NCBI GenBank assembly: GCA_023144005.1
Contig: JAGLGN010000014.1
Location: 29,984-93,983 of the forward strand
Length of the DNA: 64,000 bases
Direction: 5' to 3'
Source of the DNA: a bacterium
Lineage (GTDB): Bacteria > AUK180
Shown here: in pieces, positions 4,156-41,413 of the stretch
Position numbering within the stretch: position 1 is the first letter of the stretch
Layout of the letters: the number at the start of each line of letters is the position of its first letter
The notes under the pieces: generated by a model
Databases searched by the model: none
What the model saw: the letters and a program-made list of their open reading frames with translations, nothing else
Told to the model about the DNA's origin: nothing
Made by a program: the position numbers and the translations under genes

Positions 4156-4244
<89 letters not shown>

Positions 4245-11981: not shown

Positions 11982-12003
11982 AAGGCCTCCATAATTTTTC
12001 AAT

Positions 12004-12032
12004 ATTATAGCATTTTTCATAATCAATTTCAA
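12004..12032 (-). promoter_or_regulatory. sigma70-type promoter of the CTD protein/PorV (and possibly gap) unit
   Basis: TTGAAA-17-TATAAT with extended TG. Confidence 0.65.
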
Positions 12033-26254: not shown

Positions 26255-27406
26255 TCAGTTCTTATCGGCATTGATCGGTTCCGCCAGGATCTCTTTTGCC
26301 AATATCTCACCTACCTTATGTTGACCGGCTAAATTCAGATGATAATCTACTGGATCGTAAAGGTCTTCCCCTGTACTTTCATAAGAGCTCCTCAAAACAG
26401 GAACGAAATTAAGGAAGTCGATTTGCTTATGCTGCAATACCTTAATGAATTCTGCTACGATAAGATCATCGATCTTAAGATCCTGCGGCTCCAGGTCCGG
26501 AACGGATTTACAAAAAGAAATATAATCCTGATTTGCCCCTTGAACCTGCATCATCGTGGGCAATATCAGGACTTTCAGTAAAATATTTTTTTGTCTGCAT
26601 AGAGAAATGAGGTCATCTAATACCGCGGCATATTTATCAAACCATCTCGCCTGTTCAAGAGTTCTAAGCCATCTCACCTGCCCGATGTCCTGCCCAAGCA
26701 TGGGGTTTGAAGAAAAAGTATTTTTCGGAACAAGGCGAAAATATATCATGGCAACCAGATTTGAATGCTCAACAAGCCACGGAAACGCTCTCCTTTTGGC
26801 CGGTAATATTATGGCTTTGCCATCTATAACTTCCACGCTCGGATAGTGATCATGAAATCCGATAAGATCAACAAGATCATTGCCCGTATAAAAAGTAAGC
26901 AGCGCCATATCCGGCTTTATAATATCACTGTTCTCTTTCAGAAAAAGGTACATCTGTTGGATAGACCAGCTCAATGTGCCGGAATTGATGACATTGTACG
27001 GGGAATCATCATGCTGGCGATTCAAAATACTTTCGGAAACATTAGGGAAAGTGTCATTTACTTTGCAATTGCCGTCCACGTGTGAATCGCCCAATACCAG
27101 GATGCGATATTCATTTTCCGCCTTTTCTCTAATTACATTTTCCTCTCTCAAGCCCTGGGCATTCGTCCGGTATATATAAAACCCTTCATCATATCGTGCG
27201 GTCTTTACATGAAGACGCGCGAATTTACTGTGCTTCATCCCATACTCTTTATCTGAAACGACACCCAGTTGATTCACATGGAAGAATTTACCATCATATT
27301 TCATTATATATGATGTGCGGAATAATGTTTCAAGTACAAGAAATAGTAATATCAGGAAACTCAGGATCCGAATGGTAATAAAAAGGTTTCTTATAAATTT
27401 TTCCAC
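26255..27406 (-). CDS. SGNH hydrolase / AlgX-AlgJ-like O-acetyltransferase family protein
   Basis: VLGDSH, FYTGND, DYHLN motifs; N-terminal TM; GTG start abuts the comEC stop. Confidence 0.8.
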   Translation of the reverse strand: MEKFIRNLFITIRILSFLILLFLVLETLFRTSYIMKYDGKFFHVNQLGVVSDKEYGMKHSKFARLHVKTARYDEGFYIYRTNAQGLREENVIREKAENEYRILVLGDSHVDGNCKVNDTFPNVSESILNRQHDDSPYNVINSGTLSWSIQQMYLFLKENSDIIKPDMALLTFYTGNDLVDLIGFHDHYPSVEVIDGKAIILPAKRRAFPWLVEHSNLVAMIYFRLVPKNTFSSNPMLGQDIGQVRWLRTLEQARWFDKYAAVLDDLISLCRQKNILLKVLILPTMMQVQGANQDYISFCKSVPDLEPQDLKIDDLIVAEFIKVLQHKQIDFLNFVPVLRSSYESTGEDLYDPVDYHLNLAGQHKVGEILAKEILAEPINADKN

Positions 27407-30307
27407 TCAGAATTCATGTTGAAGATCCGCGATCTCCATATCGCCAGAGGAATTGCCGGAGGTAAATCTCAGTAATTTGCCGTCACATATCTTATATCTT
27501 ACATAACCCACTGAGAGATCATAGAAGTTGGTGCCGGCCTTATCCTTCAGATAACTAAAATCCTTCTGGAATTGAGCTAACTCCTTGCCCTTGTTGAAAT
27601 AATCTATATGAAAAAGCATGTCCATGGGCAATGCGAGATTCAGCATATCCTTGAGTTTGTAGTTATACAGGAAGCGTGTGGGCATAAGGACCACATCGAC
27701 CTTATCGAAATACTGCTTGTATGACATCAGTTTATCCACTTCCCCCCTGTCCAGATCAGCGGCTAATAAAAACTGTTTTCTTGAGATCTCAATACCCTTT
27801 TTCTTCAAGATATAGTCCGCTTTGAGTACCATATTATCCTGAAAATAGTCCTCTTTGTCGCTGCTTTCCGGGTAGATAGCATATATCTCAAACACATATT
27901 CACTATTCCCCACCTTCTTACTCTCTCTTAGAATATAATCACCCGCCTTTACCACGACATGGGGTATTTTGCTGGACATTAGGGTGTTGCTTACCTTCTG
28001 ACACGTTTCATATCTGCTTTTTACCCAATAAGCCTGGCCTCTTTCCAGTAAATACTCATTATCAGTAGATTTCAAGAAATCTTCATAGCTAGATGCGGAT
28101 GCTTTTTGCACATCTGTGGGAATATAGACCTTCCCCACGGGGTATTCCCTCAGTATTGTGGTAACCGCCGAGTTATTATCCTGAGAATAATCCGTCAGGA
28201 TCAGATCGTCTATACGGTTGATACCGTAAGACATCAAAATGCTCATGACCACACGGTCGGCCTCGTCCCACTCCCTTCTGTTATAGAGAGAATGCTTACC
28301 TGCATTTATCAGCACATTTCTTCCCGAAGGCGTTTTGATGAAAACGACATTGCCCTTTGAAAGGGAAAAGAAGGTTATATCAACTTCATTATCCCTTTTT
28401 GTGGGTATCAGCAGAAGTATGGAGCCCAGCAGGACAATAGCGATTATGATCGCGGGCAGAAACTTAAATATACGCGCCCTCTTATCATGTTTCTGTTTGA
28501 ATACCGTCAATTTATATTTATAGTCAAGCCACTTACTTTTGATATACGGAAGATTGATAATGATAAGCAGCGCCACAAAATAGAATATCAGCCCGCCGAA
28601 GGTGAACTTCTTCACATACGGATATGGGAAAGTGGTCGAAAAGAAATGCGCGGACTGTATAAAGAGCTTCAACAGCAGATAATTAGCGGCATTGATGAAC
28701 AGTCCCATATATATCCCTACAACGGGTATCAGAGACAGAATTGCCGCGATCATCCCCAATTGGACATTGATGCCGATGAGGGGTATGGCGATGTAATTGG
28801 CGTACATACCCGCAATTGGATATCTGCCAAAATAATATGCGGAAAGCGGGATCATCATTCCCAGCTGTATCGCAAATTGTGCCGATATGAAGGATATCAG
28901 CCAAGGCGGCATCTTTCTGTAGGATGGAGCGGCAAGCTGCTTTTTTTCCTCAAATTTATTGGATAAATACAAAAACACCCCGGAAGCGGCAAAAAATCCC
29001 CACAGAAACAGTGAATTAAAGAAATAGCTCTTGAAGATGATGATAAGCGCGGTGAAGGAGGCGAAAACAAAGCAAGCCGCCCAAAAGGTATATCCGATCA
29101 GATACTTCTTGAAAATATCATCCAGAAACGGCGTGATAAGGACAAGTGATAGCACCGCCCCAAACGATAGAGTAAAGGATGCTTCTCTCAATAGAAGCGG
29201 GTTCACAAATAATATCATAAGAGCGGCAACGGAAATACCCACCTCGATCGAGGTTCGCAGCCCCTTGCCGGAAAGAACCCATGCCATCAGCACGGCGCTA
29301 TTCATTATTACGGCCCGCAAAGTGGATGGCCGTCCGCCGGTGATTATCGCGAATATCACTAAAAAGAGTATCGTAATAATTGCATAAACTCTTCTGGGAA
29401 CCCCTATCAGTGAGAATATCCCGACAAAGAATATCATAAGGATCGTAACATGAAGCCCCGACACGGCCAGTACATGATTCACACCCGCCCTTTTGAACTC
29501 ATCCTTTATCTGATATCGGGCATCAGGCAGGAAGATCCCGTCCATGCCGTATCTCAACCCCAGGGTAATACCGCCTAAAAATGCCGACTCCGGGTATTTC
29601 ACCGTTCTTCGAATGGTTTTCAGGAATTTCTGTTTGATACCCAATGAGAAGGCGACAAAAGGATTCTTCTTCGTCAGCTCATCGGGGGTGATGCGCGACG
29701 CATCCTTGAAATACGCAGTATAATATACTCCGGTGCTTTCCAGAAATTTTCTATAATCAAAGCCGCCCGGATTCGTTGCTTTCTGCGGCCTCTTCAAGTC
29801 CGTTTCAAAAGTGATATAGTGCCCGTATGAGAGAAATTCCGGGAATTTCCCCTTCTTGAATGAATAATTAAGAAGTATCTTGCCCTTTTTCACTTCTTTC
29901 GAACGGGCGCCGTTAACTGAGATCTTCAGGGGCTTGACATATACCCGCATCCGATTTTCAAAATACTCGGGTTCTCTGTACACATAACCTTCGACCGTTG
30001 CGGATATTTTGTCTTCTCCTCCGGTAACGGTCAGTATATGCCCTTTTCTATCGATATTCAGAGCATTGTGTGTAAAAGCCAATCCCAACACAAAGGGCAA
30101 AAGGTAAAAGGCCATCAGCATAGGTATCTTCTTGATATACCCCCAGCGCTTATAAGAATAAAACCCCACTGCGATAGCCGCGAGAAGAACGACGGCAGAA
30201 AGGATGAAAAGAAAAAACGGAGAGGCCAGAGGGAAGACACCGAAACTGATGAGTATGCCGAGGACAAAGAACAATGTAAAGAGGTAGAGTTTATTTTCCC
30301 AATACAT
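27407..30307 (-). CDS. comEC: ComEC/Rec2 DNA uptake channel (DUF4131/OB + Competence + degenerate MBL domain)
   Basis: NPGGFDYRKFL, HVLAVSGLHV, GGRPSTLRAVIM, SFTLSF motifs; the C-terminal MBL-like region lacks HxHxDH. Confidence 0.95.
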   Translation of the reverse strand: MYWENKLYLFTLFFVLGILISFGVFPLASPFFLFILSAVVLLAAIAVGFYSYKRWGYIKKIPMLMAFYLLPFVLGLAFTHNALNIDRKGHILTVTGGEDKISATVEGYVYREPEYFENRMRVYVKPLKISVNGARSKEVKKGKILLNYSFKKGKFPEFLSYGHYITFETDLKRPQKATNPGGFDYRKFLESTGVYYTAYFKDASRITPDELTKKNPFVAFSLGIKQKFLKTIRRTVKYPESAFLGGITLGLRYGMDGIFLPDARYQIKDEFKRAGVNHVLAVSGLHVTILMIFFVGIFSLIGVPRRVYAIITILFLVIFAIITGGRPSTLRAVIMNSAVLMAWVLSGKGLRTSIEVGISVAALMILFVNPLLLREASFTLSFGAVLSLVLITPFLDDIFKKYLIGYTFWAACFVFASFTALIIIFKSYFFNSLFLWGFFAASGVFLYLSNKFEEKKQLAAPSYRKMPPWLISFISAQFAIQLGMMIPLSAYYFGRYPIAGMYANYIAIPLIGINVQLGMIAAILSLIPVVGIYMGLFINAANYLLLKLFIQSAHFFSTTFPYPYVKKFTFGGLIFYFVALLIIINLPYIKSKWLDYKYKLTVFKQKHDKRARIFKFLPAIIIAIVLLGSILLLIPTKRDNEVDITFFSLSKGNVVFIKTPSGRNVLINAGKHSLYNRREWDEADRVVMSILMSYGINRIDDLILTDYSQDNNSAVTTILREYPVGKVYIPTDVQKASASSYEDFLKSTDNEYLLERGQAYWVKSRYETCQKVSNTLMSSKIPHVVVKAGDYILRESKKVGNSEYVFEIYAIYPESSDKEDYFQDNMVLKADYILKKKGIEISRKQFLLAADLDRGEVDKLMSYKQYFDKVDVVLMPTRFLYNYKLKDMLNLALPMDMLFHIDYFNKGKELAQFQKDFSYLKDKAGTNFYDLSVGYVRYKICDGKLLRFTSGNSSGDMEIADLQHEF

Positions 30308-30456
30308 TATTTTTCTTCCAAAAACCCGTAATACGATTCATTGGACCTGAGATTTCCCTCGATCGTATAATTCTTATCAAAGGCCAGAACCAGGATCGCG
30401 GCAATCGCAATGATAATTATTCCTATTAAAATAAAGGTCTTCTTTCCTTTTTTCAT
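30307..30456 (-). CDS. Unannotated 49-aa single-pass membrane protein
   Basis: Hand translation MKKGKKTFILIGIIIIAIAAILVLAFDKNYTIEGNLRSNESYYGFLEEK*; TAATG overlaps at both ends. Confidence 0.75.
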   Translation of the reverse strand: MKKGKKTFILIGIIIIAIAAILVLAFDKNYTIEGNLRSNESYYGFLEEK

Positions 30457-32447
30457 TAACTTCTCCAGTCAAGATAGAATTTGAAAGCCCTCTGCGGAAC
30501 CGTATTATCAGCCCTTGCCGAATTGTCCTGAATATAATACCTTCTTTTGTACCCTATTTTCAGCTTCAGATTCTTTCTCCAGAGGTTTTTGCTGTAATCA
30601 ACAGACCACTCCCGGTATTCCTCTGAGGTGGATGAGTCCGACTTCCTGTAAATATTATTGTCCGTGGATTTAAATGAGAACAGGAATGTACCCAGAGCGG
30701 GTTTCCAGTTCGCCTTCAGCTGATAGGATGCGTTGGCCTTTCTCTGAGGCAGTGAATGTTCCATATAGGTATTGAAGCGGTAAACGCCTGTCAGGCGTAA
30801 TTTCTCGGATAGATTGTAATTAAAAGTCACATAAGTCCTGGTGCTTTTGTCCGATTCGGAATAATCCGTAATATATGAATCATTCAAGTCCCTTGCCAGA
30901 TCGTTATCTTTGTACCGCTGCGTCACCGCCATATCAACGAGCGGTGTTATAGGATATTGAAATTTTACCGAGCCGTCGAAATTGGTCTGAAGGGTTGAAT
31001 AATATCTCCAGATATCCGCTTTGGGAGTGATCTCTAATTTCCCCAATTTTAAAAGCGCATCGAATTTAATGCCCCTTTCGTTCTGGGCGGAAAGCTCCGC
31101 AGGAGATTCATATGTAGCGAATGTATATGAGTAGGGATTTTCAAATTCCCTGTGGAAATCCCTGTAAATAAAATTGATCCGCGCGGTTTTCTTTTTCATG
31201 GTCATCTTCAATAAGAAGCCGTGAGCGCCGGATTCCAATTGCCCGAATTCCGCCTGAATAGCCGATTTTTTAAAAGGAGTCCACCGCATATTCAATCCCC
31301 ATACCCATGCATCGAACATGTCTTCAGAGTAATTATTCGGCTTGTAGAGATCAGAGGCATAGATCTCCTTATTATGATAAACGGTCATTCCGATAAAATT
31401 GTCCTCTCCGCCGATTCGCATATGTCCGCCGAAAATGGTCTTGTTGACATAATTCGGAATGGAAAGAGCGATCGTGTCTTCGTCGAAATCGGTCTCTGAA
31501 TACGCCGATTCATCCGCGCTGAAATCAGCCGAACTGACCAGAAGATGCGAATACTGATAGAGCTTGTCCTGTATCTGTGACGCGAAGATGAAAATCTCCG
31601 CCGGTCCCAGCACCGTTCGCATGCCGGCACCCAGGAGATTCAGATTAAAATCGGAAGTAACATCACTTGAACGGTCTCCTTTGAAGCCGTAGAGATTTTT
31701 GTTATCGGATTCATTAAAGACCACGCCAAGGCCGAAGCCCGCCATGTAATTTCCCGTGATCAATTGGAAGTTCTTTGTATTCCAATTTATAAATACCTTA
31801 GGCAGGGGCCATATTGTTTTCTTCGGGTCAACTATCACTTCGCCGGGCTGAAGGAAGATCTCGCCGTTTTCATCATAGGTAACAGGCCCGTCATATTCCT
31901 CAAAGCTGTATGTAGCGTATCTGCGTTCCTGAAGAATTCCTATATCCAATACCTTTCCGAGGCGGAAGCGGTACTTGAACTGTACATAGGGCGTTTCTTC
32001 CGATTTGGTCGTGGAAGAGACCTCGTCCCGGAATTTAAAGTTGAGGTCCGTTTTCCTTTTCAATACCTTCTTACCCTTGACCTTCTTTATCTTGACTGGA
32101 GGAATGATACGCATAAATCCCTCAACAAAACTGAAGTCGGTACGCCCAAGGATCTTTTTGAGCGGCTTGTCATCTTTAAATGGCCGGTTCTTGATGATCT
32201 CATTAGCGATCTCAAGGTTTACCTTGGGAAGCCGTAACAGCTCGCTCTTGGGAGCGCTATTGACCTCTATCGGATTTGAGAAGAGTTCCCAAAGCATAAT
32301 ATACTGCTCTTGATCGATATCTCCGGACTCGTAGAGATCCGCGATCTCGTCTTCCGTAGATATGGGTATCGAAAGATCATAATCCTGAGCAAATGCAAAA
32401 GAGGCCAAAAACAAAACGATCAGAAATAGTATTCTACCTTTCATCAT
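30456..32447 (-). CDS. Helix-hairpin-helix domain + predicted outer-membrane beta-barrel protein
   Basis: Signal peptide; IEVNSAPKSELLRLPKV...IIKNRPF (ComEA-like HhH); long amphipathic-strand region ending FYLDWRS. Confidence 0.75.
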   Translation of the reverse strand: MMKGRILFLIVLFLASFAFAQDYDLSIPISTEDEIADLYESGDIDQEQYIMLWELFSNPIEVNSAPKSELLRLPKVNLEIANEIIKNRPFKDDKPLKKILGRTDFSFVEGFMRIIPPVKIKKVKGKKVLKRKTDLNFKFRDEVSSTTKSEETPYVQFKYRFRLGKVLDIGILQERRYATYSFEEYDGPVTYDENGEIFLQPGEVIVDPKKTIWPLPKVFINWNTKNFQLITGNYMAGFGLGVVFNESDNKNLYGFKGDRSSDVTSDFNLNLLGAGMRTVLGPAEIFIFASQIQDKLYQYSHLLVSSADFSADESAYSETDFDEDTIALSIPNYVNKTIFGGHMRIGGEDNFIGMTVYHNKEIYASDLYKPNNYSEDMFDAWVWGLNMRWTPFKKSAIQAEFGQLESGAHGFLLKMTMKKKTARINFIYRDFHREFENPYSYTFATYESPAELSAQNERGIKFDALLKLGKLEITPKADIWRYYSTLQTNFDGSVKFQYPITPLVDMAVTQRYKDNDLARDLNDSYITDYSESDKSTRTYVTFNYNLSEKLRLTGVYRFNTYMEHSLPQRKANASYQLKANWKPALGTFLFSFKSTDNNIYRKSDSSTSEEYREWSVDYSKNLWRKNLKLKIGYKRRYYIQDNSARADNTVPQRAFKFYLDWRS

Positions 32448-33922
32448 TCACCTCCCTGTCCATTGTCAACAGCTGGATCGTATTCTCCCGTTTTTATCAT
32501 ATTTCTCATATTCTCAAAGGTCTTGGGGCCTATTCTGGGAACATTCATAATATCCTCTATGTTCTTAAATCCGCCGTTTTGCTTCCTGTAGGAAAGAATG
32601 TTCGCCGCTGTCTTCACTCCTACGCGCGGAAGTTTCTGCAGCTCCGCACTGTCCGCGGAGTTGATATCTATTAGCGGTCCGCTGTAAGAGGTCTTCGAGG
32701 CGGTGGAAGTGGACGAGGAACTGCGTGACGGTACAATTTGAGACGATGACTCATATTTACTGCCAACGGTAATATAGGACCGTATTTTTTCAACGGTCTT
32801 AGCGCCGATCCTGGAGACATTCTGCAGGTCTTCCACTCTTCTGAACGGCCCGTTCACCTTCCGGTATTCCACTATACGCTCTGCCGTCTTACTGCCGATA
32901 CCCGGGATCGCGGATAGCTCCTCCGCATTTGCGAGGTTAATATTTATCCTGCCGTTGATCACCGAGAGTTCGGGTTTGGATTCTTTGTTTCCGAGTCCAA
33001 AGGCAAAGGTATGTGTGGCGCCCAGCTCCGGATGTACCTTCAAGGCGTATGAAACCGCCATACCGCCACCGTAAATACCGAGACCGGCAGAATAGGAAAG
33101 ACGCTCCGAGTGAAGATATTCAATGCCGCCGAATAGAGCAAAGTTATCCGTCATATCATACTTGATGCCAAAATGATATTCGGAATAGAGGTCCCGTTTA
33201 GCCGCGAAATTTTCCAGATATGCGTCATAGTCGGCAAAATCACCGACCGCCTCTTCTATCTCCGCTTCCTCGGCGTCGGTATAGCTCCCGAGTCCGTAAG
33301 TATGTTTCAGAAACGATGCGGGAATATTTGCGATCAAATTGAAATAAATATTCAATTGTACAAATGGCGTATATGATACCCCTATGCCGACATCCCTCGC
33401 CATGTATTCCTGGCCGATATACGGCGCCGAAACATTTCTGAATCTTGCTCCGAAATAAAGTTCCTGATTTACAAAAAGCACCATTCCCATATCCAGGGCA
33501 AGTGTGGATGCCGAACCGATCTCATCGATAACGACACTCATATATTTCCCTTTGAAGCCAAGTGCGAAATTAGAGCCCACATTAAAGGCGCCGGCGAATT
33601 GTATCTGCTGCTCCGCATACAGCCATGAGCCGAATTTTATAAGGTTCAGGCCCATTGTCATGGAACCGAAGCGCTTAATATAATTTGCTGAGGTATTTGC
33701 GAGCTCATCCATGCCGTAGAGCCGGGATGTGGTAAAATTCAAATGGACATTCTCCAGATAGGCCAGCATGGCGGGATTATTGTATATCGCCTCCGGGCCC
33801 ATAAGGACCAGATTTGCTCCGCCGGTAGCGAGGTTCAGGGGCATATTCCCCTCAAATTCAAAGGCAGTCCATCCATTGGCGGCCAGAATGATCGCGCAAA
33901 CTACTATTATTATTTTTTTCAT
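32444..33922 (-). CDS. PorV/PorQ-like beta-barrel fused to two ComEA-type HhH DNA-binding domains
   Basis: ATGGA...AIYNNPA barrel start; ININLANAEELSAIPGIGSKTAERIVEYR and IDINSADSAELQKLPRVGVKTAANILSYR, joined by a Ser/Thr linker. Confidence 0.88.
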   Translation of the reverse strand: MKKIIIVVCAIILAANGWTAFEFEGNMPLNLATGGANLVLMGPEAIYNNPAMLAYLENVHLNFTTSRLYGMDELANTSANYIKRFGSMTMGLNLIKFGSWLYAEQQIQFAGAFNVGSNFALGFKGKYMSVVIDEIGSASTLALDMGMVLFVNQELYFGARFRNVSAPYIGQEYMARDVGIGVSYTPFVQLNIYFNLIANIPASFLKHTYGLGSYTDAEEAEIEEAVGDFADYDAYLENFAAKRDLYSEYHFGIKYDMTDNFALFGGIEYLHSERLSYSAGLGIYGGGMAVSYALKVHPELGATHTFAFGLGNKESKPELSVINGRININLANAEELSAIPGIGSKTAERIVEYRKVNGPFRRVEDLQNVSRIGAKTVEKIRSYITVGSKYESSSQIVPSRSSSSTSTASKTSYSGPLIDINSADSAELQKLPRVGVKTAANILSYRKQNGGFKNIEDIMNVPRIGPKTFENMRNMIKTGEYDPAVDNGQGGE

Positions 33923-33931
33923 GGCAGCCCC

Positions 33932-36900
33932 CTACATCCTTTTCCCAATGGCAACGACTTCTTTCTTATAAATAGATTTCGTTTCATTTCTCAATTCGAT
34001 GTATAGAATATATACACCCATGGGCAGCGGTCGGTTACGGTTATCGTCGCCGATCCATTTCACAGAGAAAGGCCCCGGCGGAAGAACTGTCTTTTCCGAT
34101 AATGTTTTTACTTCTCTTCCGGCAACATCATATACGCGCACTGTAAGCACTCCCTCGGAAACAACATGCAGGGAGATCTCGGTATATAATCTGTTCGGAT
34201 CGCTGCCGTCATTAACAAAGCTCCTCGGGGAGATCTCGATCTGCGTAATATTGCCTGCGGGGATCTCCGTTTCATCGCAAGGTCTTCCCATCGTGGGTTC
34301 TTCCGTGATCGTCCAATCGGCAAGCGTGTTCGTATCTGTAAATTCCGCATCACGCGTTATAGATGATTCTTCATCCACATTATTTGATCTGATGGCATTG
34401 GTGGCGGCATAGATCCAATCGTAAATATATCCGCTGTCCGGCTGCTCGCCAAGAGGATAATCGGGGTATTTCGCCATATTGGGGAAGAATTTGTATATCT
34501 CTCCGTCCCAATGATATGCTCCTAATTTGGGATCGGATGAAAAATATACCTCATAGAAATCGCTGTATTCAATATAAGAGATATCTATCAATTCTGAAAC
34601 GACCCATGTCGACGCGGCGGGAACCACCTGTCCGTCAGCTATAAGATCACCGTTCTCGTCAAAGGGGAATATCTGTTCTTCTGAGTTTCTTTCAGCCCAT
34701 ACAACGGCATCTTTGATATTTCCGGAAAAATCCCGAAGCTCAAGATTTTCATCCGTGCTGGAAAGTGAAAGTTTTGAAAGATAGACCGTTAATATGCCGT
34801 CACTTCCCGCGGTAAGTTCGCTGTCGCTTTCATTTCCTACGGTGATAATGACAAATTCTCCTGTTTTCAAGGTCGTTCCAGGCTGAATTATCGCGACTAC
34901 ACTGTCCGTCAGCATGAAACAGCCCCCGACATCTACGCCTGCCCCGGAATTGCCGTCATCCTTGCAATAAAGCTCTATCCAATCCGGAAATCCAGAAGGT
35001 GAGTAAAAGTAAACCTCTGATATCACGATATCCGTTTCGGCGGGCAAGGTATCGATCGGATGGCCGTAACCCGGCGTAACGACCAGTGTATTCTTCCAGT
35101 CAACTTTATCATTGGTATCCGTATTGAAGTAATCCCTGACAATGGAGCCCTTTGAAAAATCAGAAGAGACACAGTCGATCTCTTCGCCGTCAACGGGAGA
35201 GCCGTAGCCTATATTCCATTGGCCGACAGCAAAGGCTTCTTCAAAATCATCGTCGGACAGTGAACCGCCCTGATCCGCCCAGCAGACAAGGTCTATCAAT
35301 TCGCCGTTCGGCGTAAATATACCCATTTGTTCGTCCGAATCGGTTATTCCTGTATCGGCGGTCGTCACAAAATATGATGCCTTGGTTAGAGGAAGCTCCC
35401 AGTCATCAGCATTATCATATATTAACAATCCGTAATCGCCGGTACGGAAAATACCGGTTGAAAGCTTTTTATCGGCACTTGCATCCAGGTCCGTAATGGA
35501 GGCGCGGGTGCCGTAGGTGGATATCGAATCAAGGTCATCTATATAAAAACCCCCAAGATCGATACCGTTTCCATTATTACCGTCATCTATCATATAAAAT
35601 TCAACAAAATCCTCGCCGTATGTCCCGATAGAATCTACTTCGGTAATGAGTATCACCGGGTCTTTTACCGTTATTGACTCGAAATAATCCGAAACGGAAT
35701 TACCGGTATCCGAGATCGCATTTGCCTTTTGATCAGCGCCCGTGACCCAGAAACCTATGACCGAAAGATTGGGAATATCCACGGTGGAGCCTTTGGTAAG
35801 GTCAGCTCCGCCTTTATAGACTAAGGAATTTCCCCATATAATGCCGTCTTCGCTGCCGTCCGCGCCGGAGCTGTAGACAAGTGTTACCGTACCGGTATCA
35901 ACAAATACTCCCGTGGAGGTCTTGATCTCATACCATAAACTCAAAGTAGATGTATCTTCAATACCACCCTCTTCTGAAAGCATCAACTCAAATGATGTTG
36001 CTGAAAGAGAAACACGGGGGAAATCGCCCGAAGGGGACATAGAAAGAGGAGCAGGGCCGGTAATATCGATCGGCAAGACCGTTAGGTCCGCGGAAACAAT
36101 GCCGTCCACTCCTGTATTTTCCGGTGTTATTTCAATAACTCCCGGAGATAGGCATCCGCCGAAATCAACCGTGCCCTCGCCATTGATCAGGGTCAGCGCG
36201 ATCGTGTCGGTGCCTCCCGAAAATTGGCCGGTTCCGGTGGGAGAAGCAGATAGCGTAATATCCAATGTCGGAGACGAGGTATAAACAGAGTAATTCTCAT
36301 CAAGAAGCTTAACCGTGACCGTCGTGGTCTCCGGCGCACCTCCGAAAACTTCTATTCTGGTGGGATATACGAAAGCACGGAGATTGATAGAGGCCTCGGT
36401 AGGCCCGACCGAATTTGGGTGACGGGGCGTACCGTAGATCGGATTACCCAGATAATCAGTGCCGTATATGGTAATTAGGTCATTATCCGCCCAATTTGAA
36501 GAATCGTTGCCGTCCTTTCCGAGAATGATCTTTTCCATGGAAACACCGCCCGATTGGCCGGCGAACCATCCATCAGAACAGTCCACTTGATCAATGAGAT
36601 TAGCGGAGCTATCATACAAACGGAGGTTTTCTCCGTCATTTGAAAGTTTACTGTAGCCAAGATCTTCCGAATCACTTCCGATATCGGCGATCGCCTGTTT
36701 TACCGGCTCAGTAGTGCTTCTGTATTCTATCAGATAATATGCTCCTGATCCGATAGTGGTCGTATTGGCAGTGGTAAGGTCAACAATTATTCCCCCGCTA
36801 TCCCAAATATACCATCCGGTAAGATCGATATCGGAACCCGTGGGATTGTAAAGCTCGATCCATTCATACCCGCTCTGGGCAATGGTACCGCTCCATGAAA

Positions 36901-36994
36901 GTTCTGAAATAACAACATCGCCGCTTGAAGCGGAATGTATAGCAAGGGGCAGTATTAAAAGGACTATCAAGAATGTTAGTATTTTTTTCATCAT
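33932..36994 (-). CDS. Secreted protein with three lamin-tail domains and a FlgD/CHU-like C-terminal domain
   Basis: VVISE...EWIELYN, LITEV...DFVEFY, IVISEV...DWIELY; C-terminal VYDVAGREVK...W.G...LPMGVYI. Confidence 0.85.
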   Translation of the reverse strand: MMKKILTFLIVLLILPLAIHSASSGDVVISELSWSGTIAQSGYEWIELYNPTGSDIDLTGWYIWDSGGIIVDLTTANTTTIGSGAYYLIEYRSTTEPVKQAIADIGSDSEDLGYSKLSNDGENLRLYDSSANLIDQVDCSDGWFAGQSGGVSMEKIILGKDGNDSSNWADNDLITIYGTDYLGNPIYGTPRHPNSVGPTEASINLRAFVYPTRIEVFGGAPETTTVTVKLLDENYSVYTSSPTLDITLSASPTGTGQFSGGTDTIALTLINGEGTVDFGGCLSPGVIEITPENTGVDGIVSADLTVLPIDITGPAPLSMSPSGDFPRVSLSATSFELMLSEEGGIEDTSTLSLWYEIKTSTGVFVDTGTVTLVYSSGADGSEDGIIWGNSLVYKGGADLTKGSTVDIPNLSVIGFWVTGADQKANAISDTGNSVSDYFESITVKDPVILITEVDSIGTYGEDFVEFYMIDDGNNGNGIDLGGFYIDDLDSISTYGTRASITDLDASADKKLSTGIFRTGDYGLLIYDNADDWELPLTKASYFVTTADTGITDSDEQMGIFTPNGELIDLVCWADQGGSLSDDDFEEAFAVGQWNIGYGSPVDGEEIDCVSSDFSKGSIVRDYFNTDTNDKVDWKNTLVVTPGYGHPIDTLPAETDIVISEVYFYSPSGFPDWIELYCKDDGNSGAGVDVGGCFMLTDSVVAIIQPGTTLKTGEFVIITVGNESDSELTAGSDGILTVYLSKLSLSSTDENLELRDFSGNIKDAVVWAERNSEEQIFPFDENGDLIADGQVVPAASTWVVSELIDISYIEYSDFYEVYFSSDPKLGAYHWDGEIYKFFPNMAKYPDYPLGEQPDSGYIYDWIYAATNAIRSNNVDEESSITRDAEFTDTNTLADWTITEEPTMGRPCDETEIPAGNITQIEISPRSFVNDGSDPNRLYTEISLHVVSEGVLTVRVYDVAGREVKTLSEKTVLPPGPFSVKWIGDDNRNRPLPMGVYILYIELRNETKSIYKKEVVAIGKRM

Positions 36995-37000
36995 ATACTC

Positions 37001-37885
37001 CTACCACCGATACCCAAGACCGGCAGATACCGTACCCGGCAATAGCGAGCCGAACCCGTATGAGACATCAAGCTCCAACTTGTTCAATCCGATCTGAGTG
37101 CCGAAAAGAATATTTCTTGTGGTGTCATTCAATATGTCGCTGGCGCCGAATCTCAATCTTATCCCTTTGTTGATATTAAAAGCTAAGCCCGAATTCAATA
37201 TCATTGAAGATTCTCTGATGACCGCCTGCGTTAAAAGCGTCATCGCCGCGCCCGCATCACCCATTGTCCATTTATACCGGAAACCGAGGCCGCCGGATAT
37301 AGCAGGGAACGCACCTTCTTGTTCAAATTCCAGCTTCGTGCCCCAATTATTTACAAAAAGCCCTATTAGAAGCTTTTTCATCTTAAAAGCGAGGCCGAGG
37401 TCAACTAAAAATGAATCCGCGGTATATGTATCGATGCGGCTGAAAAGGTATTTTATATTTACACCGGCATAAGTGTTCTGACCGATGGCATCTCCGAAAG
37501 AAAGCACAAGGCCAAGATCGGAAGAGTGAAATTGTCCGGTAACCGTGCCTATCTCGTCCCGGGAATCCTGATATCCCCAATTGCCGTAAATGGTGGAAAT
37601 GCCGACATTGCCGAAATTCTCAAGATATACGGCAGTCGATATCAGAGAGACATCCATCTCCTCATAATATTTTCTATAGCTTGTTTTAAAATAATTCCAG
37701 CCCGAGATCGGCATCAATGCCGGATTGACCAGCATAGAACCGAAATCATCAATATCAACGCCTAGGACGGAACCGCTGCCGCGTGCTCCCGAAGTCGGGT
37801 CAATATTAAAGACATTGGAAGAGCCCATTGCGGCAATGCAAACCGAGATCAAGAGAGCCATTATGAATATTACAGATCTCTTCAT
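37001..37885 (-). CDS. PorV/PorQ-like outer-membrane beta-barrel
   Basis: Signal peptide; SGARGSG...MLVNPA; C-terminal SAGLGYRW. Confidence 0.8.
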   Translation of the reverse strand: MKRSVIFIMALLISVCIAAMGSSNVFNIDPTSGARGSGSVLGVDIDDFGSMLVNPALMPISGWNYFKTSYRKYYEEMDVSLISTAVYLENFGNVGISTIYGNWGYQDSRDEIGTVTGQFHSSDLGLVLSFGDAIGQNTYAGVNIKYLFSRIDTYTADSFLVDLGLAFKMKKLLIGLFVNNWGTKLEFEQEGAFPAISGGLGFRYKWTMGDAGAAMTLLTQAVIRESSMILNSGLAFNINKGIRLRFGASDILNDTTRNILFGTQIGLNKLELDVSYGFGSLLPGTVSAGLGYRW

Positions 37886-37888
37886 GAT

Positions 37889-40800
37889 CTACCTCACCAC
37901 CGAAAACTTGACCATCGCGGTAAAACTATCCGCCTTTACCAGGCCGAAATATATACCCGCGGGGATCTTTCTCCCATATCTGTCCTTCAGGTCCCAAGTT
38001 ATCTGATGGAATCCCGCGGATAGCACGGCATCGTGTATCTCTACCACCTTTCTCGCATCCAATGTCAAAATGGTCAGCGTTACATTGGATTCTTCCAGTA
38101 TGTTTATCTCGAATGTTATCGTGTCAACATCCGGAGTTGCCGGATTCGGATATGGGGTATATATATTATTCCCGTCAAATGAAGTGTCAATGAAATACTC
38201 CAGCAGATCAACGCAGGTGAATTCCACTATATGCTTTCCCGCCTCGGTGGACAGGGTCAATGTAAATGATGCCGAACCATCTGTGCCGGTAAGGGCGGAA
38301 GAAGGAGCGATAGATGCACCCAGGGGAGTGTCAATAAGCGAGGTCGCGACATCCGCTCCATACAATCCCAAGCCGGTATCAGAAGTGATATATACCAAGA
38401 TTTCTCGATCCTTCCCAGGGGCGGTGTGCGGGTCTTCCGCGGGGTCAAATGTCATTACAGCGGGAGAAAGGACATCAAATTCAGGCGAATTCAGCTCAAC
38501 AAGATCAGTACCATTCTCTAAAATACTTATCCCGAATTCATATACACCTTCCGCATCAGGGAAATTATAACTATTGAAATCTATGCTCACCGAGCTTGCC
38601 GCGGTAATGCCGGCAATGGTTATGGTAGAGCCGGAAACCGTATAGGCAACCGTATTGGAAGCATCAACGGTTACTGTCAGATTTGCTAATGTTGGTTGAG
38701 TAAAGCTTGAATGAACAACGATATACAGATCATCGTCCCCATCCAGCTTGGGATATCCTACCGTATAATCAATACCAAGATCTCCATTGCCGCCCTGGCA
38801 AAGTGGGACATTTGGGGTTTTTGAAATACCATAAGAGCCGGAAACCGCAGAGTCCACATTACCGAAAGGCGAGGAATTTCCCGACTCATCAAGGGCTTTC
38901 ACTGAAATATAATATGTCGTGCCGGCAGGCAGCATTGTCAGTATATGCTCCTCAGCCTGAGCCGGCAGAAGCGGTGTTATACCTGAAGTATCGTACTTAT
39001 CCGAGGCGATGAAGTCCGCGTCATCAGTGATCGGGGCGGTGGAATAAGCGATCTCATAGCTATCGCATTGAGATACGCCCAGCCCGTTCTCGCCCACCGC
39101 GGTAAAGTTAATTCTGATCCCGCCGATAGTGGGATGGGAATATGCGGCAAAATCATTGATCACCGAGGGCGGGCGATTATCGATGGTGTTGAAAGAAAAG
39201 AGGTAGTCGCCGCCGGGAGCGCCGTCATCGTCTCCGTCAAGGCCGTTGCCTGAAATATCCATAGCTCCGGAGTAAACGGTAATATCATATGAAGTATCTT
39301 CCGAAAGCGGAGCCGTAAGGGTCATCGTCAATGTCTCATTTCCGGCATCCCAGGAAAGCGTATATGCTACAGCCGGGATTATCTCAAGCGATAAATCCAC
39401 CGATACGGTATTCATTTCCTCTGAGAATGTGATAACAATATCGGTCGCTGTATCTATATTCACTCCCGAATCGATCGGAGATGTGTATAGAACGGTCGGT
39501 GAGGCATAATCTCCACAGCTTGTACTGTAATTTGAGTTTTCAGCACCGGGTGTGGCATTAAGAGGATTATTGTCGGCATCAAGGCCGTTTATTGTAATTC
39601 CGTCATTGGAGCCCCAGTTACCGGCGACCGAGCCGCCGACACATGGGTCAATTCTCTCCATTGAATAATAAGCGGGTGAGCCGGTACCGCCGAACCATCC
39701 GGCGCCACAATCGACCAGATCAACTGTCACATCGGATGAATTCTTTAAAGTTATCGTCGCGCCGGTGTTACTCAAGCTGAGAGATGTATCCACAAATCCG
39801 CCCGCAACATCATTCACGGTATCCTCGGAATTTTCAATAAGATAATATCCGAAAGCGGGAATAGTTCCCGAAAGTGTTTCTAAAATAAACCCGACTCCCT
39901 GAACATACCATCCCGTAAGGTCGATCCCCTCACCGGTCGGGTTGTATAACTCTATCCACTCATCGGAAGAAGAATGAAGTGTGCCACCGAAGGCAACTTC
40001 ATTTACAACAACCTTTCCGGTCATTGACTCATATACTTCGATCGATGGAGAAGCTCCGATCGCTGAAAGCGTACCCGTACCTTTCGATCTTACGGTAAAG
40101 GCATATGTTCCAAGTGTGTCGCACATAGCGCCGGGCGAACCCAATGACATATCTCCATAAATAAATATCAGCGTATTTCCGGTATCAAGCGTAGTAATAT
40201 CCGCTATTATCTCCCAACCGGTGGTCTCATTTCCTGTAATAGACGCGATCGAGGCCACGGCATCACCGGAAAGGGAAAGATACCCTTCTGATGCCGGAGC
40301 GCCGTCCTGCGGCTGTGACCAGTTCGCGGGAATATATAGCGAGACCTGCCCGCCCGCCATATCAAGCGATGCGGTATAGATCACATTTACACTCTGATGA
40401 TTATCCTTGAGAATATTAGAGGGATATGCGACCGCTGTACCGGTGCCGTCACCATATTGCGATGTCTGAAAATTGAAGGTATATGTATCTCCGCCCGAAT
40501 CATCCACTGAGGCGGAATCAGCCAGCGTATTGCCCGCTACATCCGCAACTACGGTCTTATCGATCTCAATATAATATGTCGTTCCGAATGACAGCGTATT
40601 ATGTGTGATCGTAAGTGTCTGTGTAGTATTTGACCATGTATATCCTTCTCCTCCGGGGGAGGGTGATATAATTATCCCCAAAGTGGAGGTATCCGCCATT
40701 TCCTCATCAAAATCAATCGTAATATCCTGAATCGGATTGACCGCGGAAGCGCCGTTGACCGGGGCCGTCGCGGTTATAGTCGGGGGTGTGGTATCCGCCG

Positions 40801-41413
40801 CTGCGCCGCCGCAGGTTGAGACTTCAACTGAATTGGGCTGTCCTGGAGTTCCATTGATAGAGGGCTCGCCGTTTATAGTGATCCCGTCATTTGTCGCCCA
40901 GTTAGAGCAAACATCGCCGGGCGAACACGGATCGATCCTCTCCATCGAATAAAAACCCGCGGCTACACCTGCGCACCAGACCCCTGAATTGTCATCAGCC
41001 GTATCTATCACATTACCGGTACCGTCCTGACCGTCGTATAAGATGATACTGTCTCCACCTACATTCATTCCAATTGTAGCGTCCCAGATCTCAATGGTAG
41101 CTCCCGAAGTGAATACTACAGCATCATTTGCATATATCAGATAGCCCTTGGCGGGAATAATAGTGGTATTATTTCCATCGGCAGCAGAAATATTCAGGAC
41201 AACCCCGGTATCGGCACCATAAATTGACCAGGCGGCTATATCGATCGGAGCATCTGTGGTATTATAGAGCTCTATCCACTCATCACTTGTCGAGCCGGAT
41301 GTACCCGCCCATGCGATCTCATTGATAACAACATCACCGGGAGTCGCAGCTTCCACGATCTGCATAGATGTCAAAAGCAAGGCAGCAATAAATATGATCG
41401 TTAATTTCTTCAT
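37889..41413 (-). CDS. Secreted protein with 2 lamin-tail, 2 SbsA Ig-like (Big_5), FN3 and FlgD/T9SS-like C-terminal domains
   Basis: VVINEI...DEWIELYN x2; DTTPPT...ITIDFDEEM and SPTVLYTSP...ITFSEEM; TTYYISVKALDESGN; PYPNP...WDLKD..G...GIYF...KFSVVR. Confidence 0.85.
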   Translation of the reverse strand: MKKLTIIFIAALLLTSMQIVEAATPGDVVINEIAWAGTSGSTSDEWIELYNTTDAPIDIAAWSIYGADTGVVLNISAADGNNTTIIPAKGYLIYANDAVVFTSGATIEIWDATIGMNVGGDSIILYDGQDGTGNVIDTADDNSGVWCAGVAAGFYSMERIDPCSPGDVCSNWATNDGITINGEPSINGTPGQPNSVEVSTCGGAAADTTPPTITATAPVNGASAVNPIQDITIDFDEEMADTSTLGIIISPSPGGEGYTWSNTTQTLTITHNTLSFGTTYYIEIDKTVVADVAGNTLADSASVDDSGGDTYTFNFQTSQYGDGTGTAVAYPSNILKDNHQSVNVIYTASLDMAGGQVSLYIPANWSQPQDGAPASEGYLSLSGDAVASIASITGNETTGWEIIADITTLDTGNTLIFIYGDMSLGSPGAMCDTLGTYAFTVRSKGTGTLSAIGASPSIEVYESMTGKVVVNEVAFGGTLHSSSDEWIELYNPTGEGIDLTGWYVQGVGFILETLSGTIPAFGYYLIENSEDTVNDVAGGFVDTSLSLSNTGATITLKNSSDVTVDLVDCGAGWFGGTGSPAYYSMERIDPCVGGSVAGNWGSNDGITINGLDADNNPLNATPGAENSNYSTSCGDYASPTVLYTSPIDSGVNIDTATDIVITFSEEMNTVSVDLSLEIIPAVAYTLSWDAGNETLTMTLTAPLSEDTSYDITVYSGAMDISGNGLDGDDDGAPGGDYLFSFNTIDNRPPSVINDFAAYSHPTIGGIRINFTAVGENGLGVSQCDSYEIAYSTAPITDDADFIASDKYDTSGITPLLPAQAEEHILTMLPAGTTYYISVKALDESGNSSPFGNVDSAVSGSYGISKTPNVPLCQGGNGDLGIDYTVGYPKLDGDDDLYIVVHSSFTQPTLANLTVTVDASNTVAYTVSGSTITIAGITAASSVSIDFNSYNFPDAEGVYEFGISILENGTDLVELNSPEFDVLSPAVMTFDPAEDPHTAPGKDREILVYITSDTGLGLYGADVATSLIDTPLGASIAPSSALTGTDGSASFTLTLSTEAGKHIVEFTCVDLLEYFIDTSFDGNNIYTPYPNPATPDVDTITFEINILEESNVTLTILTLDARKVVEIHDAVLSAGFHQITWDLKDRYGRKIPAGIYFGLVKADSFTAMVKFSVVR

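What the first reader, a model, noticed from the sequence alone, without database searches (positions are those of the whole stretch)
27450..28390. ComEC metallo-beta-lactamase domain has lost all metal ligands
Seen: family motifs DVGQGD, IDxG, THxHxDH, TGD and HHG appear here as SLSKGN, INAG, TDYSQDN (28166-28195), AAD and PTR. Known: the ComEC MBL domain is a metal-dependent nuclease thought to degrade the non-transported strand. Inference: a pseudo-nuclease kept for structure or DNA binding, so strand degradation needs another nuclease or the transported substrate differs.
Basis: partly seen in the sequence, partly recalled or inferred. Interest (0 to 1): 0.68.

Follow-up and report, generated by a model that had tools for sequence, protein, structure and literature searches.

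The report
ComEC with a dead nuclease domain
The DNA-import channel protein ComEC of this uncultured cold-seep bacterium keeps the fold of its built-in nuclease but has lost most of the catalytic residues, and this is a conserved trait of a large multi-phylum ComEC family that also always carries a tiny upstream membrane protein.

Summary
The gene at 27407-30307 (-) encodes a 966-aa ComEC with an OB fold, a channel and a 330-aa C-terminal domain (CTD).

"All ligands lost" is overstated. Two of the seven ligand positions keep the canonical residue (D710, D851), and one His became Asp. No HxHxDH exists elsewhere in the protein.

The domain is not decaying. Its dN/dS is 0.047, the same as the rest of the protein.

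The loss is neither specific to this gene nor tied to its operon. It marks a whole "long-form" ComEC clade (915-1250 aa; PVC phyla, Riflebacteria, unclassified lineages). Canonical ComECs of about 800 aa keep every motif.

This clade has two further hallmarks:
- an acidic C-terminal tail ending in F/L/W;
- a roughly 50-aa single-pass membrane protein encoded immediately upstream (40 of 43 long-form loci, 0 of 35 canonical loci).

The most likely role is a catalytically dead scaffold at the channel entrance, with strand removal done elsewhere. S. pneumoniae ComEC plus EndA is a direct precedent, so this is a new variant of a known kind.

The parts
27407..30307 (-). comEC, 966 aa, long-form ComEC/Rec2 family protein
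   Evidence: Pfam DUF4131 (E=2.9e-24) and Competence (E=2e-38). NCBIfam ComEC_Rec2 scores 159.7 bits, below its cutoff of 190. AlphaFold2 model: pLDDT 89.4, pTM 0.86.
29693..30220 (-). OB fold (DUF4131), aa 30-205; keeps the NPGGFDYRKFL segment that aligns with the conserved aromatic helix at the channel entrance
   Evidence: PMC13539106 for the role of that helix.
28412..29635 (-). Transmembrane competence (channel) domain, aa 225-632; keeps GVNHVLAVSGLHV (H278) and RPSTLRAV (R331)
   Evidence: R331 is invariant and H278 nearly invariant in the 118-sequence alignment. They align with channel residues H254 and the essential Arg of solved ComEC (PMC13539106).
27450..28390 (-). C-terminal pseudo-metallo-beta-lactamase domain, aa 640-952
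   Evidence: phmmer E=2.4e-14 to PDB ComEC. Domain model pLDDT 89.5, pTM 0.90. Foldseek top hit 9ic4, E=3e-16, TM 0.63/0.78, followed by Pce and other MBLs. dN/dS 0.047.
28349..28366 (-). SLSKGN in place of the ComEC motif DVGQGD
28298..28309 (-). INAG in place of MBL motif I (IDxG); Asp changed to Asn
28175..28195 (-). TDYSQDN in place of motif II T-H-x-[HD]-x-D-H. H to D706, H/D to S708, D kept (D710), H to N711
27968..28111 (-). Helical segment aa 733-780, holding a roughly 20-25 residue insertion absent from canonical ComEC domains
   Evidence: Alignment gaps in canonical sequences; helices 734-779 in the model.
27827..27844 (-). FQDNMV in place of motif III (NNNS-hydrophobic)
   Evidence: The register is ambiguous by one residue.
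27755..27763 (-). AAD in place of motif IV (T/A)GD; the bridging Asp D851 is retained
27671..27682 (-). PTRF in place of motif V PHHG; the His pair became Thr-Arg
27410..27445 (-). Acidic C-terminal tail GDMEIADLQHEF ending in Phe; low model confidence
   Evidence: 100 of 127 long-form ComECs end in F/L/W, against no preference in canonical ones. pLDDT is below 50. No nonsynonymous change against the 98% relative.
30307..30456 (-). 49-aa single-pass membrane microprotein (MKKGKK-TM-...DKNYT...RSNESYY...), joined to both neighbours by TAATG stop/start overlaps
   Evidence: A family HMM hits 40 ORFs, all directly upstream of long-form ComECs and none at canonical ComEC loci. No Pfam or NCBIfam family.
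30456..32447 (-). 663-aa secreted protein with an N-terminal ComEA-type helix-hairpin-helix motif; the remainder is possibly an outer-membrane barrel (not tested)
   Evidence: Pfam HHH_3 E=1e-5, below cutoff. Only 5 homologue clusters, all in the narrow clade. Syntenic in L001, L002, L006 and L089.
32444..33922 (-). 492-aa ComEA-like protein with two HHH_3 repeats
   Evidence: Pfam HHH_3 E=1.9e-46. NCBIfam ComEA HhH repeat region 124 bits, above its cutoff of 53.
33932..41413 (-). Two large lamin-tail-domain proteins (1020 and 1174 aa) with T9SS-type C-terminal sorting domains, flanking a PorV/PorQ-like 294-aa protein
   Evidence: Syntenic in L001, L006 and L089.

Best explanation
The C-terminal domain of this ComEC is a catalytically dead metallo-beta-lactamase-fold module, a pseudo-nuclease. 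It is kept under strong selection as a structural part of the periplasmic entrance of the DNA channel.

It is not a private degeneration. It is the most stripped-down version of a trait that defines a monophyletic 'long-form' ComEC family (about 915-1250 aa) found in PVC-group phyla, Riflebacteria, Schekmanbacteria and unclassified lineages. In that family:
- motif II is typically S-x-E-R, and D-x-S-x-D-N in this gene;
- the domain carries insertions;
- the protein ends in an acidic tail with a terminal F/L/W;
- a roughly 50-aa single-pass membrane protein is encoded immediately upstream and is translationally coupled here.

The OB fold and the channel residues are intact, and ComEA-like genes are adjacent. 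The protein most likely still imports DNA.

Inferred, not shown: the dead domain, its tail and the microprotein form a docking or guide module at the channel mouth. The non-imported strand is removed or displaced by something other than ComEC, as with EndA in S. pneumoniae.
For: Homology and fold:
- phmmer E=2.4e-14 to solved ComEC.
- AlphaFold2 pLDDT 89-90 for the domain.
- Foldseek best hit is the ComEC beta-lactamase-like domain 9ic4 (TM 0.78-0.81), followed by Pce and other MBLs.

Ligand loss:
- Motif II is D/S/D/N, motif V is T-R and the 'GHP' His is K, whereas 119 canonical ComECs have H-[HD]-D-H, GD, HHG and H.
- No alternative HxHxDH exists.
- Single substitutions of these ligands abolish activity in active ComECs (PMC8579336, PMC12455585).

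Selection:
- Against a 98% relative, the domain has 54 synonymous and 12 nonsynonymous differences, dN/dS 0.047. The rest of the protein gives 0.046.
- The domain is conserved down to 27% identity in P0006/P0007.

Family trait:
- 0 of the 120 best full-length homologues has the motif.
- Genome loci split cleanly into ComECs of at least 915 aa with degenerate motifs and ComECs of about 800 aa with canonical motifs.
- 44 of 47 motif-lacking ComECs in the sample fall in one neighbour-joining clade on the channel domain; two of the three outliers are short forms with no C-terminal domain.

Family hallmarks:
- Terminal F/L/W in 100 of 127 long-form sequences.
- Upstream microprotein in 40 of 43 long-form loci with upstream sequence, against 0 of 35 canonical loci.

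Still a DNA importer:
- H278, R331 and the OB-fold helix are retained.
- ComEA-like genes sit next to long-form ComECs in at least 14 other loci, with a secretin-HhH fusion in L005.
Against: - No biochemistry exists. The retained D706, D710, D851 and N711, plus D824/N825, could in principle hold a hard metal such as Mg2+ or Ca2+.
- The structure is a prediction, and I could not inspect coordinates to see what fills the old metal site.
- The scaffold or docking role, and any contact with the tail or the microprotein, are inference only.
- I could not search the rest of the genome for a substitute nuclease, pilus genes, ComFA/ComFC/DprA or a second ComEC.
- No member of the long-form family is known to me to be naturally transformable.
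- The neighbour-joining tree has no support values, and the sequence sample is biased by how it was collected.
Confidence: 0.75

Rival explanations
1. The domain is still a hydrolase that uses a remodelled, oxygen-rich metal site for Mg2+ or Ca2+ instead of the His-rich Mn2+ site. The site would be built from D706, S708, D710, N711, D824/N825 and D851. ComEC would then still degrade the second strand itself.
For: Several acidic or amide side chains sit at the old ligand positions. The domain is under strong purifying selection. N711 and an acidic residue at motif II position 5 are conserved across the narrow clade.
Against: - The candidate ligands are not invariant even among close relatives. 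D706 is N in P0006/P0007, D851 is A in P0003/P0004, and S708 is N in P0006.
- The motif V His is replaced by a conserved Arg or Lys, which would repel a cation.
- Motif I Asp is Asn.
- The His and Ser proposed to bind DNA are also gone (PMC12455585).
- The wider family has S-x-E-R at motif II.
Confidence: 0.1
2. The domain is an evolutionary remnant without function, decaying after the nuclease role was lost.
For: Most catalytic and substrate-binding residues are gone. Pfam no longer recognises the domain.
Against: - dN/dS is 0.047, identical to the channel.
- There are no frameshifts or stops.
- The domain persists across a clade that spans several phyla.
- The predicted fold is confident.
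- There are 51 invariant residues in the narrow clade.
Confidence: 0.03
3. Long-form 'ComEC' proteins are not DNA importers. The channel was recruited for another polymer or for envelope biogenesis, so a nuclease is simply irrelevant. Here the gene abuts a glycan-synthesis region and T9SS-type cargo genes.
For: - The gene abuts a strain-variable polysaccharide gene region.
- There are no pilus, ComF or DprA genes in the 64-kb window.
- NCBIfam ComEC_Rec2 scores below its cutoff.
- No member of the family has been tested experimentally.
Against: - ComEA-type HhH DNA-binding genes are adjacent here and in at least 14 other long-form loci, and a secretin-HhH fusion sits in L005.
- The OB fold and the essential channel Arg and His are conserved.
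- The downstream glycan genes are not syntenic even in a strain whose ComEC is 98% identical (92.7% nucleotide identity across the shared region), so they are not part of the unit.
Confidence: 0.1

Closest known systems
Streptococcus pneumoniae ComEC (CelB) C-terminal domain, working with the separate nuclease EndA
   Same: It has a full-length MBL-like domain with non-conservative changes at most metal positions. Only 2 of 7 are kept (PMC5031224), the same count as here. It is thought to be inactive and possibly retained as a guide for DNA (PMC8579336, PMC12455585). Strand degradation is delegated to another enzyme.
   Different: [quoted passage not shown]
- The pneumococcal protein is an ordinary-length ComEC from Firmicutes.
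- Not examined here: whether it has the insertions, the acidic F/L/W tail or the upstream microprotein.
- No EndA homologue has been identified for the present organism; the window has none and the genome was not searchable.
Canonical three-domain ComEC (B. subtilis, Moorella/Neomoorella; PDB 9ic4, 30bt)
   Same: The domain order is the same: OB fold, competence channel, MBL-fold domain. The channel hallmark residues are conserved, and the domain fold matches at TM 0.78-0.81.
   Different: Canonical proteins have D..D, H-x-[HD]-x-D-H, N, GD, HHG and a GHP His, and are Mn2+-dependent 5'-3' exo/endonucleases. Here five of seven ligand positions and the proposed DNA-contact residues are replaced. 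The protein is about 170 aa longer.
ComEC proteins scored as 'DUF4131 + Competence' (no Lactamase_B) in Pfam-based surveys, e.g. H. pylori ComEC and Chlamydia CT339
   Same: Pfam sees no Lactamase_B domain here either, so this protein would be counted among the roughly half of ComECs that 'lack' the nuclease domain (PMC6299819, PMC8579336). CT339 shows that a PVC-group ComEC without a recognisable MBL domain supports DNA uptake (PMC6686042).
   Different: H. pylori ComEC truly ends before the domain (PMC5031224). Here a 330-aa MBL-fold domain is present but cryptic. Whether CT339 belongs to the long-form family was not tested.
Pseudo-enzymes of the MBL / beta-CASP nucleases (CPSF100, INTS9)
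   Same: These are MBL-fold subunits that have lost metal ligands and serve as scaffolds next to an active partner. INTS9/11 structures appear among the fold matches. That they are inactive scaffolds is my own background knowledge.
   Different: Those are eukaryotic and soluble, carry a beta-CASP insert and pair with an active paralogue. Here no active paralogue is known and the domain is fused to a membrane channel.

Membership tests
ComEC/Rec2 family | Competence domain (PF03772) forming the multi-helix channel | tested here: met
   E=2e-38, 132.7 bits against a cutoff of 23. The GVNHVLAVSGLHV and PSTLRA motifs are conserved.
ComEC/Rec2 family | N-terminal OB fold (DUF4131, PF13567) | tested here: met
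   E=2.9e-24, 86.1 bits against a cutoff of 31.6.
ComEC/Rec2 family | Passes the NCBIfam equivalog TIGR00361 ComEC_Rec2 | tested here: not met
   159.7 bits against a cutoff of 190.05. The best-scoring stretch covers only residues 152-393.
ComEC/Rec2 family | Required for DNA uptake across the inner membrane | not testable with these tools
   Only context is available: ComEA-like genes are adjacent.
Metallo-beta-lactamase superfamily (fold) | Alpha-beta/beta-alpha sandwich fold | tested here: met
   Model pLDDT 89.5, pTM 0.90. Foldseek hits to 9ic4, Pce, PNGM-1, L1, RNase J and others at probability 1.00.
Metallo-beta-lactamase superfamily (active enzymes) | Motif I Asp (IDxG) | tested here: not met
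   INAG, Asp changed to Asn.
Metallo-beta-lactamase superfamily (active enzymes) | Motif II H-x-[HD]-x-D-H | tested here: not met
   D-Y-S-Q-D-N; only the fifth position is kept. There is no such motif elsewhere in the protein.
Metallo-beta-lactamase superfamily (active enzymes) | Motif III His (Asn in ComEC) | tested here: inconclusive
   Asp824 or Asn825, depending on a one-residue shift in the alignment.
Metallo-beta-lactamase superfamily (active enzymes) | Motif IV bridging Asp | tested here: met
   AAD, D851 retained. It is Ala in relatives P0003 and P0004.
Metallo-beta-lactamase superfamily (active enzymes) | Motif V His (HHG) | tested here: not met
   T877-R878-F879. R or K is conserved at the second position across the narrow clade.
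Active ComEC nuclease domain | Mn2+-dependent nuclease / phosphodiesterase activity | not testable with these tools
   This needs a purified domain. The prediction from the sequence is that it is inactive.
Long-form ComEC family (defined here) | Length of at least about 915 aa with a degenerate motif II | tested here: met
   966 aa with D-S-D-N. It groups with 44 of the 47 motif-lacking sequences in the sample in one clade.
Long-form ComEC family (defined here) | Acidic C-terminal tail ending in F/L/W | tested here: met
   ...EIADLQHEF.
Long-form ComEC family (defined here) | Small TM protein with a Y..SNxxYY tail encoded immediately upstream | tested here: met
   Window 30307-30456 (-), HMM E=3e-16. 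Its stop overlaps the comEC ATG.

The most novel reading that the evidence does not exclude
Long-form ComECs are a distinct, undescribed type of DNA importer. In them the built-in nuclease has been replaced by a three-part periplasmic module: a pseudo-MBL domain, an acidic F/L/W-ended tail, and an obligately co-encoded microprotein of about 50 aa. This module handles the incoming duplex without cutting it, for example as a strand-separation wedge or as a docking site for a separate nuclease.

In this cold-seep lineage the module is wired into a pilus-independent capture system made of T9SS-displayed lamin-tail-domain proteins, a ComEA-like protein and an HhH-capped outer-membrane protein.
Probability: 0.3. 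Interest if true: 0.75.

Novelty: new variant of a known kind. Interest (0 to 1): 0.5.

Why it matters
How the non-imported DNA strand is handled in the many bacteria whose ComEC 'lacks' a nuclease domain is an acknowledged open question (PMC8579336).

This case shows that part of that 'lacking' class, as counted by Pfam, actually carries a cryptic MBL-fold domain. The domain is strongly conserved but catalytically stripped. The class is a coherent family with its own accessory microprotein and tail motif.

That gives concrete handles for experiments:
- domain, tail and microprotein deletions;
- co-folding of the parts;
- nuclease assays.

The aim would be to ask what the ComEC periplasmic domain does besides cutting DNA. 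It also cautions against inferring presence or absence of the nuclease from Pfam calls alone.

The organisms are uncultured or little studied, and inactive ComEC nuclease domains have a precedent in S. pneumoniae. The advance is therefore incremental rather than a new principle.

Tried and rejected
- **Domain-only homologue search.** The word-indexed search with the C-terminal domain alone found nothing, although the full-length search found a 98% identical protein. I treat this as a limit of the tool, not as evidence of uniqueness. The exhaustive representative search found two strong clusters plus about 590 hits that match only the N-terminal half.
- **Intact motif elsewhere.** I looked for an intact HxHxDH anywhere in the protein and found none.
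- **Basic DNA-binding surface.** I tested whether the domain is unusually basic. The pI is 6.2 for this protein and 6.2-9.4 across the clade, which is uninformative.
- **Nuclease in the window.** Pfam and NCBIfam scans of about 45 window ORFs found no nuclease or stand-alone MBL. PDB sequence searches of the two LTD proteins found nothing, and the HhH protein gave only weak chance-level matches.
- **Link to the operon.** I tested whether the inactivation tracks the LTD / HhH-barrel operon. It does not.
- **Downstream SGNH-like gene.** I considered it as part of the unit and rejected it. Similarity to the 98%-protein-identity relative's locus (92.7% nucleotide identity) stops exactly at the comEC stop codon.
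- **RNA features.** Rfam found only one tRNA.
- **Expression.** No RNA runs contain the locus, so expression could not be checked.
- **Microprotein families.** Pfam and NCBIfam have no family for it.
Full report
**What is there**

The finding lies in a 966-aa ORF on the minus strand, 27407-30307. Pfam finds DUF4131 (the ComEC OB fold, aa 30-205) and the Competence channel domain, but no Lactamase_B. NCBIfam's ComEC_Rec2 equivalog scores 159.7 bits, below its cutoff of 190, and its best stretch matches only the N-terminal part. The finding's range 27450-28390 corresponds to residues 640-952, which is the whole region after the last transmembrane helix.

**Is that region a ComEC MBL domain?**

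Yes, on three lines of evidence.
- phmmer against PDB sequences hits full-length ComEC 30bt (E=2.4e-14) and the isolated ComEC beta-lactamase-like domain 9ic4 (E=2.9e-10) over the first ~125 residues. It aligns FIDVGQGD with FFSLSKGN and STHPDADHIGG with LTDYSQDNNSA.
- A profile of the family aligns both halves of the domain with these structures, including motifs III-V.
- AlphaFold2 gives a confident full-length model from a 118-sequence alignment (pLDDT 89.4, pTM 0.86) and a confident domain model (pLDDT 89.5, pTM 0.90). Foldseek's best PDB match for both is 9ic4 (E=1e-11 and 3e-16; TM 0.81 and 0.78 on the target). Next come the phosphorylcholine esterase Pce, the known closest relative of the ComEC domain, and many other MBLs.

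**The motifs**

In L-INS-i and hmmalign alignments with 119 canonical ComECs (median length 778 aa), the canonical pattern is D..D / H-x-[HD]-x-D-H / N-x-S / GD / HHG / GHP. This protein compares as follows (coordinates).

| Motif | Here | Residues |
|---|---|---|
| DVGQGD | SLSKGN | 648-653 |
| I (IDxG) | INAG | 667-670 |
| II | T-D-Y-S-Q-D-N | 705-711 |
| III | FQDNMV | 822-827 |
| IV | AAD | 849-851 |
| V | PTRF | 876-879 |
| GHP | NKGK | 905-908 |
| RTD | FYDLS | 928-932 |

Published work defines seven metal positions: four in motif II and one each in motifs III, IV and V (PMC5031224, PMC8579336). Mutating H598, D602, H603 or D700 abolishes nuclease activity, and H725 and S728 are proposed DNA contacts (PMC12455585).

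Here two of the seven positions keep the canonical residue (D710, D851). One His is Asp (D706). Motif III is Asp or Asn depending on register. The motif V His is Arg. The protein contains no H-x-[HD]-x-D-H anywhere, and the domain has only four His, none at a motif position.

The residues thought to hold DNA are also gone, which weakens 'kept for DNA binding'.

**Remnant or functional?**

Functional. Against a relative whose protein is 98% identical (L006), the domain has 54 synonymous and 12 nonsynonymous differences, giving dN/dS 0.047. The OB fold plus channel gives 0.046. The domain is alignable down to 27% identity in the P0006/P0007 clusters. It has 51 invariant residues across the narrow clade, including N653, D700, T705, N711 and P876.

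In that clade motif II reads [DN]-x-[SN]-x-[DE]-N, and the second motif V position is always R or K. This would fit a charged pair replacing the metal centre. That is an inference, because I could not read the model coordinates.

**How widespread is it?**

- None of the 120 best full-length homologues (30-98% identity, 930-1250 aa) has the motif. Their motif II is mostly S-x-E-R. Many keep GD and HHG or xHG.
- In 80 loci from species-representative genomes the split is clean. ComECs of at least 915 aa are degenerate; they come from Kiritimatiellia, Verrucomicrobiota, Lentisphaeria/Victivallales, Riflebacteria/Ozemobacter, Schekmanbacteria, CSSED10-310 and unclassified MAGs. ComECs of about 780-865 aa have every motif; they come from KSB1, Latescibacterota, Poribacteria, Ignavibacteria, Fidelibacterota, Gemmatimonadota, Zixibacteria and Bacteroidota.
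- On a neighbour-joining tree of 292 channel-domain columns, 44 of 47 motif-lacking sequences form one pure clade. Two of the three outliers are short Pontibacter ComECs with no C-terminal domain at all. This fits one ancient loss, but the tree has no support values.
- The present gene sits at the most degenerate end of this family.

**Two further hallmarks of the family**

*C-terminal tail.* 100 of 127 long-form proteins end in F, L or W after an acidic stretch (here ...EIADLQHEF). Canonical ComECs show no such preference. The tail is modelled with low confidence, as expected for a peptide that binds a partner.

*Upstream microprotein.* A small ORF lies directly upstream: window 30307-30456 (-), 49 aa. 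It has a basic N-terminus, one TM helix and a tail with D/N-Y...S-N-x-x-Y-Y.
- An HMM built from 23 such ORFs hits 40 ORFs. All are on the ComEC strand, and in most loci they end within about 26 nt of the ComEC start. All are in long-form loci.
- That is 40 of 43 long-form loci with upstream sequence, against 0 of 35 canonical loci.
- In Lentisphaeria/Victivallales the match is the end of a longer reading frame.
- Pfam and NCBIfam have no model for it.
- In the window, the HhH protein, the microprotein and ComEC are joined by TAATG stop/start overlaps.

**Context**

Upstream, on the same strand, lie these genes:
- two lamin-tail-domain proteins (1174 and 1020 aa); the first passes the T9SS type A sorting-domain model;
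- a PorV/PorQ-like protein between them;
- a 492-aa ComEA-like protein with two HhH repeats;
- a 663-aa secreted protein with one ComEA-type HhH motif.

This operon is syntenic in the 98% relative and in the 57% relative, and partly in P0006. The 663-aa protein has only five homologue clusters in 5.8 billion proteins.

Other long-form ComECs sit in different contexts:
- many have a ComEA-like gene directly downstream;
- L005 also has a secretin-HhH fusion upstream;
- a Kiritimatiellia locus has none of these.

So the inactivation is a family trait, not a feature of this operon. The channel hallmarks are kept: H278 in GVNHVLAVSG, invariant R331 in PSTLRA, and the aromatic OB-fold helix (PMC13539106). 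Together with the HhH neighbours, this argues that the protein still moves DNA.

No nuclease or stand-alone MBL is detectable in the 64-kb window. The rest of the genome could not be searched. The sequence comes from cold-seep sediment metagenomes, and no RNA data hold it.

**Mechanism, with status of each step**

- Shown: ComEC family membership, MBL fold, loss of five of seven ligand residues and of the proposed DNA-contact residues, strong purifying selection, clade-wide distribution, and linkage to the microprotein and the tail motif.
- Inferred: the domain cannot run two-metal hydrolysis. It is retained because it builds the periplasmic vestibule with the OB fold, as in the cryo-EM structure, where the two domains form the channel entrance (PMC13539106). 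The tail and the microprotein may dock there.
- Also inferred: the second strand is degraded by another enzyme or merely displaced. This is the same logic as for S. pneumoniae ComEC, which keeps 2 of 7 ligands and relies on EndA (PMC5031224, PMC8579336, PMC12455585).

**Comparison and novelty**

An inactive ComEC MBL domain is not new in principle, given S. pneumoniae. Pfam-based surveys already count about half of ComECs as lacking the domain (PMC6299819). I found no paper describing any of the following:
- that a multi-phylum family hides a conserved pseudo-MBL domain behind that 'absence';
- that this family has a characteristic tail;
- that this family has an obligately linked microprotein.

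I therefore rate this a new variant of a known kind, of moderate interest. It would become more interesting if the microprotein, tail and pseudo-domain prove to be a functional unit.

Noticed in passing
window 30307-30456 (-); also L001 9848-9994, L002 1546-1704, L005 9813-9974 and about 35 other loci: A conserved single-pass membrane microprotein of about 50-75 aa (tail motif D/N-Y...S-N-x-x-Y-Y-P) is encoded immediately upstream of long-form ComEC genes in several phyla. It is absent from canonical ComEC loci. No Pfam or NCBIfam family covers it.
   Followed up: yes
window 27410-27445 (-), ComEC aa 955-966: The long-form ComECs share an acidic C-terminal tail ending in F/L/W (100 of 127). 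The model gives it low confidence, so it may be a partner-binding peptide.
   Followed up: partly
window 30456-32447 (-): A 663-aa protein with a signal-peptide-like N-terminus and one ComEA-type HhH motif. The remaining roughly 550 aa match no family or structure, and only five homologue clusters exist, all next to this ComEC clade.
   Followed up: partly
window 33932-41413 (-): Two very large lamin-tail-domain proteins with T9SS-type C-terminal sorting domains flank a PorV/PorQ-like gene, in the same operon as the ComEA-like and ComEC genes. This suggests surface display of DNA-related proteins by a type IX system. A second PorV-family gene (7691-8641) and another T9SS-tail protein (8649-12032) lie elsewhere in the window.
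   Followed up: partly
window 27407 (comEC stop) and downstream to about 14000: Nucleotide similarity (92.7%) to the locus of the 98%-protein-identity relative (L089) runs from 40307 exactly to the comEC stop codon, then ends. The downstream polysaccharide genes (SGNH-like, GNAT, methyltransferase, WbqC, Wzy-like, GT2) have no detectable nucleotide similarity to what follows comEC there, so this looks like a strain-variable glycan island boundary.
   Followed up: partly
window 26255-27406 (-): The ORF lister gives a 383-aa GTG-start ORF abutting comEC, whereas public gene calls start it about 100 nt further downstream (349 aa). It contains a GDSH motif typical of SGNH hydrolases but has no Pfam hit. 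A 31% identical copy lies about 7 kb downstream of comEC in L001.
   Followed up: no
window 4159-4244 (-): A single tRNA gene is the only Rfam match in the window.
   Followed up: no
tool behaviour: The word-indexed protein search with the 347-aa C-terminal fragment returned no hit, although a 98% identical full-length protein is in the database. Negative results from that tool with sub-fragments should not be read as absence.
   Followed up: yes
L005 2948-7903: In one long-form ComEC locus, a 1651-aa secretin (AMIN, Secretin_N, Secretin) is fused to a ComEA-type HHH_3 domain.
   Followed up: no
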